Shown here: positions 1-3,711 of the stretch, piece after piece
Layout: every line of letters starts with the position of its first letter
Numbering within the stretch: the first letter of the stretch is position 1
Source of the DNA: a virus
Taxonomy: Duplodnaviria; Heunggongvirae; Uroviricota; Caudoviricetes
IMG/VR virus record: IMGVR_UViG_2660238215_000005
Reading direction: 5' to 3' (one strand)
Length of the DNA: 14,235 nt
Translations under genes and position numbers: made by a program
The notes under the pieces: model-generated
The model's input: only the letters and a program-made list of their open reading frames with translations
What the model was told of the DNA's origin: nothing
Databases searched by the model: none

Positions 1-222
1 GTCCTCCTGGTGGGGTGGGCCTGAACACGGGGCGGGCGGCGCGGAAAAAAGCGCATTTTTGTGATTTTATCGTCATCATCATCATGTGTGTAACCTGTTG
101 TTTTTAATGTGGTTGATGCAAAAAAGATGATTGTGGTTAATTTTTGTTCGACATCTTTTAGCGTGACAGATTCTTTACAAAAAATCTGAGCTTGTTTTCT
201 TCACCAGCGCGATGGGGGCACA

Positions 223-504
223 ATGACAGAAGCCGAAATACTGGGATTAATCCGCCGCGTCGCCGGAATCAGCCAGCAGGTTGACGAACAGGCCACGCAG
301 CCGGACAGCATGACCGCAGATAATTATGTGCGTGTAGTGGTGGAGGTGATGCGCGGTGATGGTATCCAGCTTAATGATGTGGATATGCGCAATATACGAA
401 CCAGAGTCCTTGAGTTGCTGGCATACCGTCGCCGTTCTCAACAACGGAGGGAGAGCGCGAAAAATACTTACCAGTGGAAGACGCCGGAACGGCTGCGGAG
501 GTAA
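223..504 (+). CDS. hypothetical small protein (93 aa), function unknown; occupies the position where a lambda-type small terminase subunit (Nu1) would sit
   Basis: ATG at 223 preceded by GGGGG (214-218) as a Shine-Dalgarno-like element; TAA stop at 502-504. Basic Arg-rich C-terminus. No recognisable winged-HTH or catalytic motif. Lies in AT-rich DNA unlike the GC-rich structural genes. Confidence 0.4.
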   Translation: MTEAEILGLIRRVAGISQQVDEQATQPDSMTADNYVRVVVEVMRGDGIQLNDVDMRNIRTRVLELLAYRRRSQQRRESAKNTYQWKTPERLRR

Positions 505-539
505 CTTGTTGATATTCCCGATAACGCAAAATTGCGTTG

Positions 540-547
540 GCTGGTGG
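540..547 (+). other. Chi octamer 5'-GCTGGTGG-3' (RecBCD recombination hotspot sequence)
   Basis: Exact match to the E. coli Chi octamer, read directly; sits between two palindromes at the junction. Whether it is functional is unknown. Confidence 0.5.
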
Positions 548-549
548 GT

Positions 550-569
550 GAGTTGCAGATCTGCAACTC
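550..569. repeat. perfect 20-bp palindrome GAGTTGCAGATCTGCAACTC
   Basis: The sequence equals its own reverse complement over 20 bp; no U-tract follows, so it is not a canonical intrinsic terminator. Candidate protein-binding or recombination site. Confidence 0.9.
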
Positions 570-587
570 GATCATGAAATTACGGAA

Positions 588-668
588 ACTACCCGTAGTT
601 TGGGTAGTAAGAGCAACACCCAGATTTTGGGGCTTACTTGCGATACCCAAATAAAGGGTATCGGTGGA
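588..668. repeat. three phased ~27-bp tandem units, each with a CCC-N7-GGG dyad
   Basis: ACCC at 591, 618 and 645 and GGG at 602, 629 and 656 give an exact 27-bp period. Unit 1 is ACTACCC-N7-GGGTAGT (588-608) and unit 3 is CGATACCC-N7-GGGTATCG (641-663); unit 2 is a weaker copy. Confidence 0.6.
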
Positions 669-701
669 AGAAATATCGTTTCTCATATGTGAGTTCCGAG
701 A

Positions 702-713
702 GCGGAATTCCGC
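702..713. repeat. perfect 12-bp palindrome GCGGAATTCCGC
   Basis: Self-complementary 12-mer read directly from the sequence. Confidence 0.85.
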
Positions 714-840
714 CTCTGATTTGTCATTGTGATCATGCATAGCGGCAATAATTAATATTGCTTCCTTTTTTGCTTTTTTATCGCTTAAGCAGGTACTAAA
801 TCTGGGACTATGTTGTAGGGGGCATAACTCAATAGTACCT

Positions 841-846
841 TATAAT
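841..846 (+). promoter_or_regulatory. consensus -10 hexamer TATAAT, possible promoter element upstream of the truncated terminase
   Basis: Exact TATAAT 33 bp upstream of the ATG at 879; no good -35 element at 16-18 bp spacing, so weak support. Confidence 0.2.
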
Positions 847-878
847 CATTTAGTTACCTTTTATTTACTTCTTCTTGG

Positions 879-2000
879 ATGGAGGGGCCAGCTGCGGCGT
901 TTCAGACCTGGGAACAACTGATTTTTAAACTGCTGGCGGCAGAAGAAGAGTATGAGCGAACCGGCAGTGAAGAGACTCTGAAAGCGGTGGTGAACACCGA
1001 TATCGGACGACCCTATCTGCCCCGTTCAGCCACGGAACAGCGTAAAAGTGAACTGCTTGAACAGCGTGCCGAGCCGTTTCCCCGGCGATCTGTGCCGGAT
1101 GGTGTGCGTTTTATTGAGGCAACGGTTGACGTACAGGGCGGTAAAAATCGCCGTTTTGTTGTGCAGATCACCGGATACGGAGAGCAGGGGGAACGCTGGA
1201 TTGTTGATCGCTACAACATCCGGCATTCACTGCGCTGCAGTCCCAACGGTGAAAGTCTGCCGGTTGATCCGGCGGCATATCCGGAGGACTGGGATTTGTT
1301 GCTGACGGATGTGTTCCATAAAACATGGCCGCTGGCTTCTGATCCGGATGTGCGCATGCGTCTGATGGCCATGGCGGTGGATACGGGAGGGGAAGCCGGG
1401 GTGACAGATAACGCCTATCGTTTCTGGCGTCGTTGCCGGAGTGACGGACTGGGCAACAGGGTGTTTCTGTTCAAGGGGGATGGACTTCGCCGTGACAGGC
1501 TGATTAACCGAACCTTCCCGGATAATACCGGCAGAAGTGCCCGCCGTGCCAGAGCCAGTGGCGATGTCGCGCTGTGGCTGGTTCAGACGGATGCGTTTAA
1601 GGATCGTGTAAATAATGCCCTGTGGCGTGACACACCAGGGCCGAACTATATCCACTTTCCCGACTGGCTGGGGCGGTGGTTTTACGATGAGCTGACCTAT
1701 GAAGAGCGCGGCAGTGACGGAAAATGGCGAAAACCGGGCAGGGGCGCTAACGAAGCGTTTGACCTGCTGGTTTATGCAGATGCGCTTGCCGTTCTGCATG
1801 GTTACGAAAAGATCCGCTGGCCCTCCGCACCGGACTGGGCACAGCGGGAAACGTGGCTCGTCTTCCCGCAGGAGCGTTCTGGTGAAACGGTATCCCCGGA
1901 ACTGACGGCCGGGGCAGAAAAACGCCGTCGCCGGAAGAAAAAACTGCGGACGGAGCGTGCGGAAGATAATCCATGGATAACATCAGGAGGCTGGTTGTGA
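879..2000 (+). CDS. terminase large subunit (lambda gpA-like), C-terminal nuclease half only; probable 5'-truncated remnant or pseudogene
   Basis: The 373-aa product aligns, from memory, with roughly residues 330-640 of lambda gpA (for example FQTWEQLIF against TTWVQIVKD, RWIVDRYNI against SWLIDRQII, NEAFDLLVYADALAVL against NEALDCFVYALAAL). Similarity begins at the ATG; the N-terminal ATPase half (about 330 aa) is absent and the upstream DNA is AT-rich and unrelated. Poor Shine-Dalgarno sequence. Confidence 0.75.
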   Translation: MEGPAAAFQTWEQLIFKLLAAEEEYERTGSEETLKAVVNTDIGRPYLPRSATEQRKSELLEQRAEPFPRRSVPDGVRFIEATVDVQGGKNRRFVVQITGYGEQGERWIVDRYNIRHSLRCSPNGESLPVDPAAYPEDWDLLLTDVFHKTWPLASDPDVRMRLMAMAVDTGGEAGVTDNAYRFWRRCRSDGLGNRVFLFKGDGLRRDRLINRTFPDNTGRSARRARASGDVALWLVQTDAFKDRVNNALWRDTPGPNYIHFPDWLGRWFYDELTYEERGSDGKWRKPGRGANEAFDLLVYADALAVLHGYEKIRWPSAPDWAQRETWLVFPQERSGETVSPELTAGAEKRRRRKKKLRTERAEDNPWITSGGWL

Positions 2001-2209: not shown

Positions 2210-3711
2210 TGGCAATTATTGATGATGTGATCGGCGTGTTTTCCCCTAGGTGGAAAGCAGCCAGACTGCGTTCAAGGGCGTTAATCATGGCCTATGAGGC
2301 GGTGAAACCGACCCGGACACATAAAGCCCGGCGGGAAAATCGCTCTGCTGATCAGCTCAGTAAATACGGTGCGGTTTCCCTGCGGGAGCAGGCCCGTTTT
2401 CTGGATATCAATCATGACCTGGTGATTGGTGTGTTTGACAAGCTGGAAGAGCGGGTGATTGGTGCCAGGGGAATTATTGTGGAGCCTCAGCCATTACGAA
2501 AAAACGGGGAAATGGCGGCTGAGCTGGCTGCGGATATCCGCCGTTTGTGGGCTGAATGGTCCGTGAGTCCGGATGTGACAGGGCAGTATACCCGTCCTGT
2601 GCTTGAACGTTTACTGCTGCGGACCTGGCTGCGGGATGGTGAAGTGTTTGCGCAGATGGTCAGTGGTGCGGGAAACGGTCTGGAACGGACGGCGGGAGTG
2701 CCATTCTGGCTTGAGGCGATGGAGCCGGATTTTGTTCCCATGCGCACTGATGAATCCGCCGGACTGAATCAGGGGGTTTTTCTTGATGAGTGGGGAAGAC
2801 CGAAAAAATATCTGGTTTATAAAAATTATCCGGTCAGCGGCCGGCAGAGTGATACGAAAGAAATCGCTGCCGGAAAAATGATCCACCTGAAGTTCACTCG
2901 TCGTCTGCACCAGACGCGAGGCTCATCCATGTTATCGGGGGTGCTGATGCGGATCAGTGCCCTTAAGGAGTATGAGGATGCGGAACTGACAGCGGCGCGT
3001 ATTGCTGCGGCGCTGGGACTGTATATCCGTAAAGGTGACGGACAGGACTATGAAGATCCGGGGAGCAAAGAGACCGAGCGGGAAGTCCATATCACCCCGG
3101 GTATTATTTATGACGATTTGCGCAAGGGCGAGGATATCGGCATGGTCAAATCTGACCGTCCCAATCCCAACCTTGAAACTTTCCGCAACGGCCAGTTGCG
3201 TGCAGTGGCAGCAGGCAGTCGTCTGAGTTTTTCCAGTGCGGCGCGTAACTATAACGGCACCTACAGCGCCCAGCGGCAGGAGCTGGTCGAGTCCACGGAT
3301 GGTTACCTGATCCTGCAGGACTGTTTTATTGGCGCGGTAACCCGCCCGGTGTACCGGACATGGCTGAATATGGTGGTTGCGGCAGGTCTGCTGAAAATTC
3401 CGGCGGATGTGGAGATGAAAACGCTATATAACGCGACGTATTCCGGTCCGGTGATGCCGTGGATCGACCCGGTTAAGGAAGCTGAAGCCTGGAGAATTCA
3501 GATCCGGGGTGGTGCAGCGACAGAATCTGACTGGGTGCGTGCCGGTGGGCGCAATCCGGATGAGGTCAAACGTCGCCGCAAGGCTGAAATTGATGAAAAC
3601 AGCAGACTGGGGCTGGTCTTTGATACTGACCCCGTCAACGACAAAGGAGGCAACAGTGCCGGAACTGAACGACAGTATCAGCGCGACACCGAAAGCCAGC
3701 ATGAAGAATAA
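2209..3711 (+). CDS. portal protein (lambda gpB-position, 500 aa)
   Basis: 500-aa ORF immediately after W with a TAATG stop/start overlap, in the syntenic portal position of a lambda-type head module. Confidence 0.8.
   Translation: MAIIDDVIGVFSPRWKAARLRSRALIMAYEAVKPTRTHKARRENRSADQLSKYGAVSLREQARFLDINHDLVIGVFDKLEERVIGARGIIVEPQPLRKNGEMAAELAADIRRLWAEWSVSPDVTGQYTRPVLERLLLRTWLRDGEVFAQMVSGAGNGLERTAGVPFWLEAMEPDFVPMRTDESAGLNQGVFLDEWGRPKKYLVYKNYPVSGRQSDTKEIAAGKMIHLKFTRRLHQTRGSSMLSGVLMRISALKEYEDAELTAARIAAALGLYIRKGDGQDYEDPGSKETEREVHITPGIIYDDLRKGEDIGMVKSDRPNPNLETFRNGQLRAVAAGSRLSFSSAARNYNGTYSAQRQELVESTDGYLILQDCFIGAVTRPVYRTWLNMVVAAGLLKIPADVEMKTLYNATYSGPVMPWIDPVKEAEAWRIQIRGGAATESDWVRAGGRNPDEVKRRRKAEIDENSRLGLVFDTDPVNDKGGNSAGTERQYQRDTESQHEE

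What the first reader, a model, noticed from the sequence alone, without database searches (positions are those of the whole stretch)
505..760. Dense array of dyad symmetries and a 3 x 27-bp phased hairpin repeat in the AT-rich junction upstream of the truncated terminase
In about 200 bp of non-coding DNA there is a 16-bp near-palindrome (AACGCAA-AA-TTGCGTT, 523-538), a Chi octamer (540-547), a perfect 20-bp palindrome (550-569), three phased 27-bp units (ACCC at 591/618/645, GGG at 602/629/656; two form 7-8 bp stems with 7-nt loops) and a perfect 12-bp palindrome (702-713). A perfect 20-bp palindrome is not expected by chance in 14 kb. The 27-bp phasing suggests an iteron or operator array for a dimeric DNA-binding protein, a packaging or partition-type site, or a structured RNA. 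It might instead be a small ERIC/MITE-like intergenic repeat: the reverse complement contains AAGTAAG...CTGGGTG, loosely reminiscent of ERIC motifs. The region coincides with the point where terminase homology is lost.
Basis: seen in the sequence. Interest (0 to 1): 0.65.

Follow-up and report, generated by a model that had tools for sequence, protein, structure and literature searches.

The report
Phage satellite's conserved non-coding end-piece
The hairpin-rich stretch is the conserved non-coding end of a small phage satellite inserted in the terminase gene of a Shiga-toxin prophage; this kind of satellite is known, but I found no description of the end-piece, which is kept more faithfully than the gene beside it.

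Summary
In detail: every palindrome and the 27-bp phasing are at the stated coordinates and exceed chance. The terminase is not decayed. It is split at a 7-bp core (TTGGATG, 875-881) by a ~10.4-kb PICI-type satellite embedded in an Stx1 prophage, and strain Sakai carries the intact gene. Positions 505-742 are the satellite's non-coding trailer. It starts at the stop codon of the satellite's last gene (93 aa, unknown function). It occurs about once per satellite in 707-1106 of 5426 E. coli genomes and is absent from 50,697 phage genomes. It lies 283-1067 bp from att sites belonging to at least six integrase types, so it is not ERIC/REP/MITE and not an att arm. It consists of an IHF-consensus linker plus a covarying stem-loop, then a core (the 20-bp palindrome and three phased repeats) that is 96% conserved against 85% for the adjacent gene, then further hairpins. 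No Rfam family, promoter or coding signal was found. My best reading, at moderate confidence, is a BIME-like structured 3' trailer of the late operon that acts in cis as RNA and carries IHF sites in the DNA. A double-stranded DNA protein-binding site and a trans-acting RNA remain possible. I found no description of this module in the papers searched.

The parts
1..200 (+). Context: the satellite's cos region, a near-identical copy of the helper prophage's cos (cosN-like GGGGCGGGCGGCGCGG plus about 170 bp downstream).
   Evidence: Alignment with the helper region upstream of its small terminase gene.
223..504 (+). Last gene of the satellite's late (packaging) operon: a 93-aa protein of unknown function with three predicted helices and an arginine-rich C-terminal helix.
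   Evidence: It lies within 1.5 kb upstream in 95 of about 99 module copies. It matches phrog_1561 (unknown function) and has no Pfam, NCBIfam or PADLOC match. The AlphaFold2 model has pLDDT 71 and no PDB fold match.
502..514 (-). Linker that matches the IHF consensus WATCARNNNNTTR (TATCAACAAGTTA) and overlaps the stop codon.
   Evidence: It is the only match in the window. Across 50 distinct homologous segments there are 109 matches against about 4.6 expected, nearly all in this orientation and position. The invariant bases across units are the informative consensus bases.
523..538 (+). First stem-loop (H0) of the 'linker + hairpin' unit that spans 502-549.
   Evidence: At least seven different complementary stem sequences occupy this position in other satellites. 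Six of 6 pairs have two-sided changes. The covariation score is 0.397 against 0.175 in shuffles, reached by 0 of 500 shuffles.
540..547 (+). Chi octamer, probably incidental.
   Evidence: There are 2 in the window against 0.83 expected. It is absent from the L004, L005 and L006 copy types.
550..569 (.). Perfect 20-bp palindrome (P20), the start of the highly conserved core.
   Evidence: Pair 9:12 is G:C in most copies, G:T in the L002 type and A:T in the L005 type.
575..667 (+). Three dyads in 27-bp phase: hp1 at 589-607, hp2 at 617-632, hp3 at 642-662. The blocks that stay conserved are GTAGTTTGGGTAGTAA, GATTTTGGGGCTT and GGTATCGGTGG.
   Evidence: hp3 shows A:T changing to C:G through an A.G intermediate. 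The left arms of hp1 and hp2 change without compensation in the L005 type.
669..693 (+). Two small overlapping hairpins (AGAAA/TTTCT and CTCA/TGAG).
   Evidence: Seen in the sequence and the RNA fold. Conserved in full-length copies.
698..717 (+). GC-rich hairpin H5 containing the 12-bp palindrome 702-713. It is terminator-like in other copies.
   Evidence: The copy in the circular satellite scores as an intrinsic-terminator-like site (11-bp stem and T-rich tail). The window's copy has a bulge and does not score. The stem is kept with a shifted register between types.
743..874 (+). Integrase-specific arm of attR: AT-rich, with an AT hairpin at 744-762 followed by T-runs at 766-771 and 774-779. 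Similarity to other satellites ends at about 742.
   Evidence: Only the 81 genomes with the insertion in gpA share this part. Fold.
875..881 (+). att core TTGGATG, the 7-bp block shared by attL, attR and the empty site.
   Evidence: Comparison of attL (L093), attR (window) and the intact terminase gene of Sakai Sp15. Flanks are 99.8-100% identical.
882..2000 (+). Distal part (from about codon 335 of 707) of the helper prophage's large terminase gene.
   Evidence: Pfam GpA_nuclease match at 1.9e-81. The N-terminal part lies on the other side of the satellite.

Best explanation
Positions 505-742 are the conserved non-coding trailer of the late (packaging) operon of an E. coli PICI-type phage satellite. 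In this window the satellite is embedded in the large terminase gene of an Stx1 prophage. The trailer is a mosaic. It begins with a linker that matches the IHF consensus and a stem-loop ('unit', 502-549). A strongly conserved core follows (the 20-bp palindrome plus three dyads in 27-bp phase, 550-667), then two small hairpins and a GC hairpin (669-717). I think it works chiefly in cis as the structured 3' untranslated end of the late transcript. In this reading the stem-loops stop 3'-to-5' exonucleases and end or slow transcription. That stabilises the packaging mRNA and insulates what lies downstream: attP and int in the excised circle, or the distal terminase and late genes of the helper when the satellite is embedded. 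The linkers would additionally bind IHF in the DNA, as in BIME-1/RIP elements of the E. coli chromosome. The core's conservation goes beyond what hairpins alone need, which suggests it is also a binding platform for a protein, perhaps the adjacent 93-aa protein. Shown: the element's identity, position, distribution, conservation, lack of coding signal, covariation of the unit stem-loop, and independence from att. Inferred: that it is transcribed, which strand acts, IHF binding, and the stabiliser/insulator role.
For: Identity and position. The satellite genes (int, AlpA-like HTH, BRO-N, Icd-like, primase, SSB, capsid fusion, 93-aa gene) lie between the two halves of gpA. An empty site exists in Sakai. 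A 10.79-kb circular form is on record, with the order 93-aa gene, module, about 480 bp of attP, int.

The module starts at the stop codon of the last co-oriented gene in 95 of about 99 copies. That gene ends satellites with quite different packaging genes: helper cos only, Nu1-like or Rpp, or HNH-TerS-TerL.

The module is not part of att. At least six different doubled arm motifs lie 283-1067 nt away, and an Abi gene can sit in between.

Structure. Both strands fold better than all shuffles. The unit stem-loop covaries. P20, hp3 and H5 keep pairing through changes on both sides or a register shift. G.U pairs number 60 on the + strand against 25 on the - strand, and the + strand is the more stable one in 30 of 45 distinct units.

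A terminator-like hairpin or a strong terminator follows the module in other copy types, which is where a 3' UTR would end.

There is no promoter, Rfam family or coding signal.

IHF consensus matches are enriched about 24-fold in a fixed orientation, and the conserved bases are the informative ones of the consensus.

Constraint. Core identity averages 95.7% against 85.4% for the adjacent gene. In six RefSeq loci found by BLAST the figures are 87-96% against 73-91%.
Against: No expression data were available, so transcription of the region and the acting strand are inferred. The window's own copy has no consensus terminator.

In the core, loops and linkers are as conserved as stems, which plain stabiliser hairpins do not require. 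In the divergent L005 type the left arms of hp1 and hp2 change without compensation. RNAalifold finds little covariation in the core and proposes a different long-range fold. Single-sided variants in the core favour neither strand.

The + strand preference in units is weak (Wilcoxon p = 0.04 on sequences that are not independent). Some unit diversity may come from swapping of paralogous units rather than from compensatory mutation.

High identity could partly reflect recent spread by recombination, since the 3' boundary of similarity differs between loci, and could partly reflect how the copies were collected.

EcCICFT073, the model PICI, has the units but no core, so the core is dispensable for a working satellite.
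Confidence: 0.4

Rival explanations
1. A nucleoprotein site in double-stranded DNA. In this reading IHF bends the DNA at 502-514, and a dimeric or multimeric protein (the 93-aa protein, another satellite protein or a helper protein) binds the palindrome and the three repeats 27 bp apart. The assembly would serve a DNA transaction other than integration, for example enhancing packaging next to cos, late replication, or control of int in the circular form.
For: Nucleotide-level conservation exceeds that of the neighbouring gene and covers loops and spacers. P20 is a perfect palindrome. The blocks kept between the two copy types read as direct repeats (TTTGGGK plus flanks) rather than dyads. The IHF consensus is present and conserved. 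Linkage to the 93-aa gene is strict. The motifs occur nowhere else in the satellite. The module lies about 470 bp downstream of the satellite's cos.
Against: The 93-aa protein has no recognisable DNA-binding fold or family. The H0 stem varies freely while its A-rich centre is kept, which is the opposite of an operator for a dimer. The 27-bp spacing puts neighbouring sites on opposite faces of the helix. att, cos and, according to the literature, ori are already accounted for elsewhere (PMC6092414). The distance to cos and to att varies by kilobases between satellite types. EcCICFT073 transfers without the core (PMC6092414).
Confidence: 0.25
2. A regulatory RNA. Either a small RNA is processed from the 3' UTR and acts in trans on host or helper transcripts, or an RNA-protein switch exists in which the arginine-rich helix of the 93-aa protein binds the hairpins (like lambda N with nut) and controls read-through past the downstream terminator.
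For: The core is conserved in sequence as well as in structure, as expected for a seed or a protein-binding RNA. It sits between a stop codon and a terminator-like hairpin, the usual position of 3'-UTR-derived small RNAs. A strong terminator follows in many satellites, with int beyond it in the circle. The C-terminal helix RRRxQQRRExxKxTYQWK, with an invariant Trp, looks by eye like the lambda N arginine-rich motif. The unit hairpins have A-rich loops closed by C-G on variable stems, which is the pattern of a loop-recognised hairpin.
Against: There is no Rfam hit. Complementarity to the helper prophage or the satellite does not exceed chance. A boxA-like TGCTCTTA on the - strand is not conserved. 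There are no expression or Hfq/ProQ binding data.
Confidence: 0.15
3. No function of its own. The module would be a recombination scar or hitch-hiking spacer at the border between the conserved packaging operon and the variable cargo region. It would look conserved only because it has spread recently among E. coli satellites by homologous recombination.
For: The boundaries are mosaic, with similarity ending after hp2, hp3 or H5 in different loci. Some loci carry tandem copies. Units occur both before and after the core. The core is missing from EcCICFT073. The host range is narrow, with one species representative outside E. coli among 185,579. Metagenomes yielded no new sequence type.
Against: Two copy types that differ by 18% still keep the palindrome, the phasing and long identical blocks, while the adjacent gene has drifted to 73% nucleotide and 60% amino-acid identity. 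The core is more conserved than the gene in 96% of 1326 pairs. The unit hairpin shows compensatory change.
Confidence: 0.1
4. Part of the attachment site: arm-type integrase, excisionase and IHF sites of attP.
For: The region lies at the right end of the integrated element. It holds an IHF consensus and repeats.
Against: The same module serves satellites with at least six different doubled arm motifs at 283-1067 nt from it. It also serves integrases that are 23-42% identical. A cargo gene can lie between the module and attR. The crossover core is at 875-881, 210-370 bp away, and the arm specific to this integrase starts only at about 743.
Confidence: 0.03
5. A member of a dispersed repeat family (ERIC, REP/BIME, MITE or an IS end), or a hidden small gene (the 90-aa ORF on the - strand at 740-468, or the 26-aa ORF from the ATG at 574).
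For: An open frame crosses the core on the - strand in three copy types.
Against: There is no match to the ERIC primer cores or the REP core with up to 3 mismatches in the region. The median is one copy per genome that has it, and every context I opened was a satellite. It is absent from phages, and the 5 matching plasmid records all typed as non-mobilizable; of the two with a match over most of the module, one is a circular satellite and the other is a 4.9-Mb record. No frame shows an excess of synonymous changes (5-10 synonymous against 18-23 non-synonymous in every frame). There is no Pfam or PHROG hit for the ORF.
Confidence: 0.02

Closest known systems
Helper-embedded PICIs (Tommasini, Mageeney and Williams 2023, PMC10111431)
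   Same: A PICI-type satellite of about 10 kb with int, an AlpA-like gene, BRO-N, primase, SSB and a late zone. It is integrated inside a late gene of a lambdoid prophage, in the same orientation, with a short identity block, and a related strain carries the intact target gene. The paper lists gene A among its targets.
   Different: The doubled motif TGTATTGC, which the paper reports at 81 bp from the crossover in every member, is absent here. The integrase is only 25% identical to an integrase of the capsid-gene type. The paper does not mention the trailer studied here.
EcCICFT073 and related E. coli PICIs and capsid-forming PICIs (PMC6092414, PMC6739421, 10.1101/2025.02.11.637232)
   Same: The same 93-aa gene closes the late operon of EcCICFT073, after rppA. 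It is followed by three 'IHF linker + hairpin' units. Capsid-forming types carry the gene and the full module after TerL.
   Different: EcCICFT073 lacks the palindrome and the three-repeat core. These papers define cos, ori, Rpp and AlpA functions, but the text searches I ran in them turned up no function for this gene or for the trailer.
BIME-1 / RIP elements (REP palindromes flanking an IHF site at the 3' ends of E. coli operons); from my own knowledge of the literature
   Same: A mosaic of hairpin-forming palindromes and a conserved linker with an IHF consensus, placed just after the last gene of an operon. Hairpin structure is maintained while the sequence varies.
   Different: There is no sequence similarity to REP. 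It is not dispersed: one array per satellite, none elsewhere. It contains a unique, sequence-conserved core with no counterpart in BIMEs.
Lambda N / nut, HK022 put and lambda sib (RNA hairpins that govern read-through or retroregulation near att); from my own knowledge
   Same: Hairpins lie in a transcript just upstream of a terminator and next to attP and int. A small basic-helix protein is encoded alongside.
   Different: There is no sequence or profile similarity. No conserved boxA exists. The hairpins follow the protein's gene rather than a promoter. No functional data exist.
Lambda cosB (an IHF site between terminase-binding R repeats)
   Same: An IHF consensus with three repeats nearby, downstream of a cos site.
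   Different: The satellite already carries the helper's own cosB next to cosN at 1-200. The module is 470 bp to several kb from cos, depending on satellite type. It is shared by satellites with unrelated small terminases.

Membership tests
Helper-embedded PICI (configuration) | [quoted passage not shown] | tested here: met
   The two gpA halves flank the satellite. Sakai ECs_2963 is intact, the 7-bp block is TTGGATG, and the flanks are 99.8-100% identical.
Helper-embedded PICI (configuration) | PICI gene zones in order: int with AlpA, Bro, primase with SSB, then late genes. | tested here: met
   RefSeq annotation of L093.
Helper-embedded PICI (integrase clade of Tommasini et al.) | Doubled motif tgTGTATTGCantgTGTATTGCa about 81 bp upstream of the attP centre. 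| tested here: not met
   No match with up to 3 mismatches in the window. The motif is present in L002 and L005.
Helper-embedded PICI (integrase clade of Tommasini et al.) | The integrase belongs to the 11capE-related clade. | tested here: inconclusive
   It is 25% identical to a capsid-site integrase, whereas that integrase is 42% identical to a chromosomal PICI integrase. No phylogeny was made.
attP arm | The sequence co-varies with integrase type and lies at a fixed distance from the crossover. | tested here: not met
   Six arm-motif types occur at 283-1067 nt from the palindrome, and a cargo gene can lie in between.
ERIC | Similarity to the ERIC consensus core (the ERIC1R and ERIC2 primer sequences, recalled from memory) and many dispersed intergenic copies. 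| tested here: not met
   No match with up to 3 mismatches. The median is one copy per genome that has it.
REP / BIME | REP consensus sequence (tail CTTATCMGGCCTAC, recalled from memory) and hundreds of chromosomal copies. | tested here: not met
   No match in the region. There are 1-6 copies per genome, and the contexts examined were satellites. Only the architecture (IHF linker plus palindromes after an operon) is alike.
MITE / IS end | Terminal inverted repeats, a target-site duplication and multiple insertion sites. | tested here: not met
   The only flanking inverted repeat is 15 nt at 80%. The position is fixed after one gene.
Iteron / replication origin | Several near-identical direct repeats, usually next to the initiator gene. 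| tested here: not met
   TRF finds no array. The units are about 50% alike by my own count. The module is about 4 kb from the primase gene. Origin function itself was not tested.
Any Rfam RNA family | A score at or above the family's gathering threshold. | tested here: not met
   The best matches have E = 0.69 and 0.84, far below threshold.
Structured RNA (general) | Base pairs kept through compensatory changes. | tested here: inconclusive
   Met for the unit hairpin. In the core there is only one compensated pair each in P20 and hp3, and there are uncompensated changes in hp1 and hp2.
Intrinsic terminator | A GC-rich stem followed by a U-tract. | tested here: inconclusive
   None in window 1-1000. 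H5 scores in the circular satellite. A strong terminator follows the module in the L002 type.
IHF binding site | A match to WATCARNNNNTTR, and binding by IHF. | tested here: inconclusive
   The consensus is met and conserved. Binding is not testable with these tools.
Lambda N-like antiterminator with nut site | An arginine-rich motif homologous to N, with boxA and boxB. | tested here: not met
   BLASTP finds no alignment. The boxA-like octamer is not conserved.
Protein-coding gene | A conserved open frame with an excess of synonymous changes. | tested here: not met
   5-10 synonymous against 18-23 non-synonymous changes in all six frames. The + strand frame has a stop in the L005 type.

The most novel reading that the evidence does not exclude
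The 93-aa protein, with its arginine-rich helix, and the hairpin array that follows its gene form a satellite-specific RNA-protein switch, comparable to N/nut or to a retroregulator. The switch would decide whether late transcription stops at the end of the satellite. If it does not stop, transcription would run on across attP into int in the excised circle, or into the distal terminase and late genes of the Shiga-toxin helper phage while the satellite is still embedded. That would couple satellite and helper gene expression in cis.
Probability: 0.1. Interest if true: 0.75.

Novelty: new variant of a known kind. Interest (0 to 1): 0.45.

Why it matters
PICI-type satellites are studied as drivers of gene transfer and phage interference in E. 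coli. Their known cis sites are att, ori and cos. This is a fourth non-coding element, paired with an uncharacterised gene. The pair is shared by classical, capsid-forming and helper-embedded satellites, and the element is kept more faithfully than the coding sequence next to it. That points to an unrecognised step in the satellite life cycle, whether in mRNA fate, read-through control or a DNA-protein assembly. It is directly testable, because a deletion of about 120 bp in an established model system would show it. In this window the satellite also splits the terminase gene of an Stx1 prophage in EHEC. Whatever governs transcription and excision at this end therefore bears on whether the toxin phage can package its DNA.

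Tried and rejected
I tried the following, and each was negative or unsupported.

- Rfam scan of 1-1500 at a permissive threshold: nothing meaningful.
- tRNA/tmRNA scan: none.
- Sigma-70 promoter and terminator scan of the window: none in the region.
- A sigma-54-like TGGTGG-N5-TTGCA at 542-557 (my own reading): rejected because the spacing is not kept in the L004 and L006 types.
- Chi: not enriched and not conserved.
- A boxA-like TGCTCTTA on the - strand: not conserved.
- Small ORFs on both strands: no coding signature.
- Antisense target search against the helper prophage and the satellite: longest matches of 13 nt, within chance.
- An oriT-like origin borrowed from a plasmid: no similarity to 72,556 plasmids beyond a few records, including one circular satellite. 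Short matches could have been missed.
- Distant homologues for covariation: two genome-collection scans, a metagenome scan and a search of 1.8 billion representative proteins. The 93-aa family and the module are essentially confined to Escherichia and Shigella, with only two sequence types, so covariation in the core cannot be settled.
- Structure of the 93-aa protein: three helices, no fold match, and no Pfam, NCBIfam, PADLOC or PDB sequence match.
- RNAalifold on 30 full-length copies: an alternative long-range fold with almost no covariation.
- Papers on E. coli O157 small RNAs: no mention of this locus. Strain Sakai, which those studies used, lacks this insertion.
Full report
Reading 1-1500 confirms each feature:
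- the 7+7 near-palindrome at 523-538;
- the Chi octamer at 540-547;
- the perfect 20-bp palindrome at 550-569, which is the longest gap-free perfect palindrome in the window;
- ACCC-N7-GGG three times in exact 27-bp phase at 591-658, never seen in 200 shuffles;
- the perfect 12-bp palindrome at 702-713.

Both strands of 505-745 fold better than all 200 shuffles (z = -4.4 and -5.9). Two details need correcting. Chi is not significant (2 found, 0.83 expected). The three 27-bp units are only about half identical by my own count, and Tandem Repeats Finder reports nothing.

**2. The terminase is interrupted, not truncated.** The 373-aa ORF at 879-2000 is the nuclease half of gpA. In an O157:H7 genome that carries the same 374-bp spacer, the N-terminal half of gpA lies 10.4 kb upstream. 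Between the halves lie an integrase, an AlpA-like HTH gene, BRO-N, an Icd-like gene, primase, SSB, a ClpP-capsid fusion and the 93-aa gene, all in the same orientation, inside an Stx1 prophage.

Strain Sakai's Sp15 prophage has the gene intact. Comparing attL, attR and this empty site gives a 7-bp identity block, TTGGATG, at window 875-881 (about codon 333 of 707), with flanks 99.8-100% identical. This is the helper-embedded PICI configuration described by Tommasini, Mageeney and Williams (PMC10111431).

A 10,790-bp record deposited as a plasmid is the circular form of a related satellite. Its order is 93-aa gene, module, about 480 bp of attP, then int.

**3. What is shared, and by which elements.** Megablast of 505-878 finds 767 of 5426 complete E. 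coli genomes, but only 81 share the whole stretch. Most share only 505-742 at about 92% identity, or 545-667.

In the loci I opened, the shared part always follows the same 93-aa gene at the right end of a satellite. These include classical PICI types with capsid, decoration and Nu1-like genes, capsid-forming types with portal, HNH, TerS and TerL, and satellites embedded in portal or capsid genes. Of about 99 copies in RefSeq and IMG/VR loci, 95 have the gene within 1.5 kb upstream, and 46 are directly adjacent to it.

The module and the gene are absent from 50,697 phage genomes. The protein family is tiny. It has 36 representative clusters, and only one of 185,579 species-representative genomes carries it, a Shigella flexneri genome. 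A metagenome scan added no new sequence type.

**4. It is not att, a dispersed repeat or a gene.**
- *Not att.* Downstream of the module, different satellites carry at least six different doubled arm-type motifs at 283-1067 nt from the palindrome. One type has an Abi gene in between. The integrases compared are 23-42% identical.
- *Not a dispersed repeat.* ERIC and REP core sequences have no match in the region. There is a median of one copy per genome that has it.
- *Not a gene.* Between the two sequence types (29 substitutions in 158 nt) no reading frame shows an excess of synonymous change. The ORFs have no family match.

**5. Anatomy.** Comparison across loci resolves a repeating 'unit'. 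Each unit is a linker, TAAC-N3-YTGATATT, followed by a two-tier stem-loop with an A-rich loop.

On the - strand the linker is a perfect IHF consensus. The copy at 502-514 overlaps the stop codon and is the only match in the window. In 50 distinct homologous segments there are 109 matches against about 4.6 expected, nearly all in one orientation just upstream of the palindrome. The invariant bases are the informative ones of the consensus, while the N4 positions vary.

The stem-loop keeps its position with at least seven different complementary stem sequences:
- six of 6 pairs show two-sided changes;
- compensated cells number 24 against 12.3 in shuffles;
- the covariation score is 0.397 against 0.175, reached by 0 of 500 shuffles;
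- the in-register structure beats all slid versions.

Some satellites have two to four units before the core and more after it. The model PICI EcCICFT073 has three units and no core.

The core (palindrome plus three phased dyads) is far more uniform. Its mean pairwise identity is 95.7% against 85.4% for the adjacent gene, and it is higher in 96% of 1326 pairs. In six RefSeq loci found by BLAST the figures are 87-96% against 73-91%. Part of this figure is biased by how the copies were collected, because most were found by exact patterns inside the core.

**6. RNA or DNA?**

*For hairpins in a transcript:*
- the unit covaries;
- palindrome pair 9:12 is G:C, G:T or A:T in different types;
- hp3 goes from A:T to C:G through A.G, seen in two sequence backgrounds;
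- H5 keeps a stem with a shifted register;
- G.U pairs number 60 on the + strand against 25 on the - strand, and the + strand is more stable in 30 of 45 units;
- the module sits between a stop codon and a terminator-like hairpin or a strong terminator in other copy types;
- there is no promoter.

*Against a purely structural RNA:*
- loops and linkers of the core are as fixed as the stems;
- the divergent type changes the left arms of hp1 and hp2 without compensation, while GTAGTTTGGGTAGTAA and GATTTTGGGGCTT stay intact;
- RNAalifold finds almost no covariation in the core;
- the window's own copy has no consensus terminator.

The IHF consensus is a DNA-level feature. The closest analogy I know is the BIME-1/RIP class of chromosomal elements, where REP hairpins after an operon flank an IHF site. 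The likeness is in architecture only.

**7. The neighbouring protein.** The protein has 93 aa and three predicted helices (pLDDT 71). The last helix carries RRRxQQRRExxKxTYQWK with an invariant Trp. It has no fold or family match. To my eye the motif recalls the arginine-rich peptide of lambda N, but BLASTP gives nothing. I treat this as a lead only.

**8. Verdict.** The region is the conserved, non-coding 3' trailer of the late operon of an E. coli PICI-type satellite. I commit, at about 0.4, to a cis-acting structured RNA end (stabiliser, terminator and insulator) with IHF sites in the DNA. The core's sequence conservation points to an added protein-binding role. A double-stranded DNA nucleoprotein site (0.25), a regulatory RNA or RNA-protein switch (0.15) and a functionless recombination border (0.1) remain open.

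The satellite type and its embedding in a helper gene are published. The text searches I ran in the satellite papers found no description of the trailer or its partner gene.

Noticed in passing
window 743-881; L093:14457-15859: This satellite is embedded in a helper gene, yet it lacks the doubled TGTATTGC motif reported for all helper-embedded PICIs. Its integrase is only 25% identical to a capsid-site helper-embedded integrase and 23% to a chromosomal PICI integrase, while those two are 42% identical to each other. This may be an independent origin of helper embedding. It is present in 81 of 5426 E. coli genomes, including O157:H7, O111 and O145.
   Followed up: partly
window 875-2000 and L093:13452-14456: The Stx1 prophage's large terminase gene is split by the satellite, so the toxin phage presumably cannot package DNA until the satellite excises. 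Sakai's Sp15 prophage has the intact gene, but its capsid-protease gene is cut by IS629 instead.
   Followed up: partly
window 1-200: The satellite carries a near-identical copy of the helper's cos region, including about 170 bp downstream of cosN. The 93-aa gene sits where the helper has its small terminase gene.
   Followed up: partly
L097 (NZ_CP148328.1, whole record): A 10,790-bp record deposited as a plasmid is a circular PICI-type satellite with a complete attP. The doubled motif GGTGTAGTTAAT lies on both sides of the core.
   Followed up: yes
L098:2530-2600 and 3260-3330: In EcCICFT073, two lambda-like cosN sequences in opposite orientation flank rppA. The 93-aa gene is the island's last gene, and three IHF-linker/hairpin units follow it without the palindrome core.
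   Followed up: partly
L005:7256-8017; L169:737-1612: The divergent module type belongs to a capsid-gene-embedded satellite that carries an Abi-family gene between the module and attR. It also carries a TIR-domain gene next to int. Both are probably defence cargo.
   Followed up: no
L013, L024, L041, L063 (IMG/VR): Two copies of the core lie 434 bp apart. The first is followed by a third arm-motif type (TTGCGGGTTATTT repeats). In L041 the second copy is cut by what looks to me like an IS903 end. This suggests recombination between satellites at the module.
   Followed up: no
L097:10747: The right half of the palindrome plus the following bases (TGCAACTC..ATGAAA) recurs once next to the attP core of the circular satellite. 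This could be chance.
   Followed up: no
window 223-504: The 93-aa protein ends in a long basic helix (RRRxQQRRExxKxTYQWK, Trp85 invariant) that looks like an arginine-rich RNA-binding motif. No tool supported homology to lambda N.
   Followed up: partly
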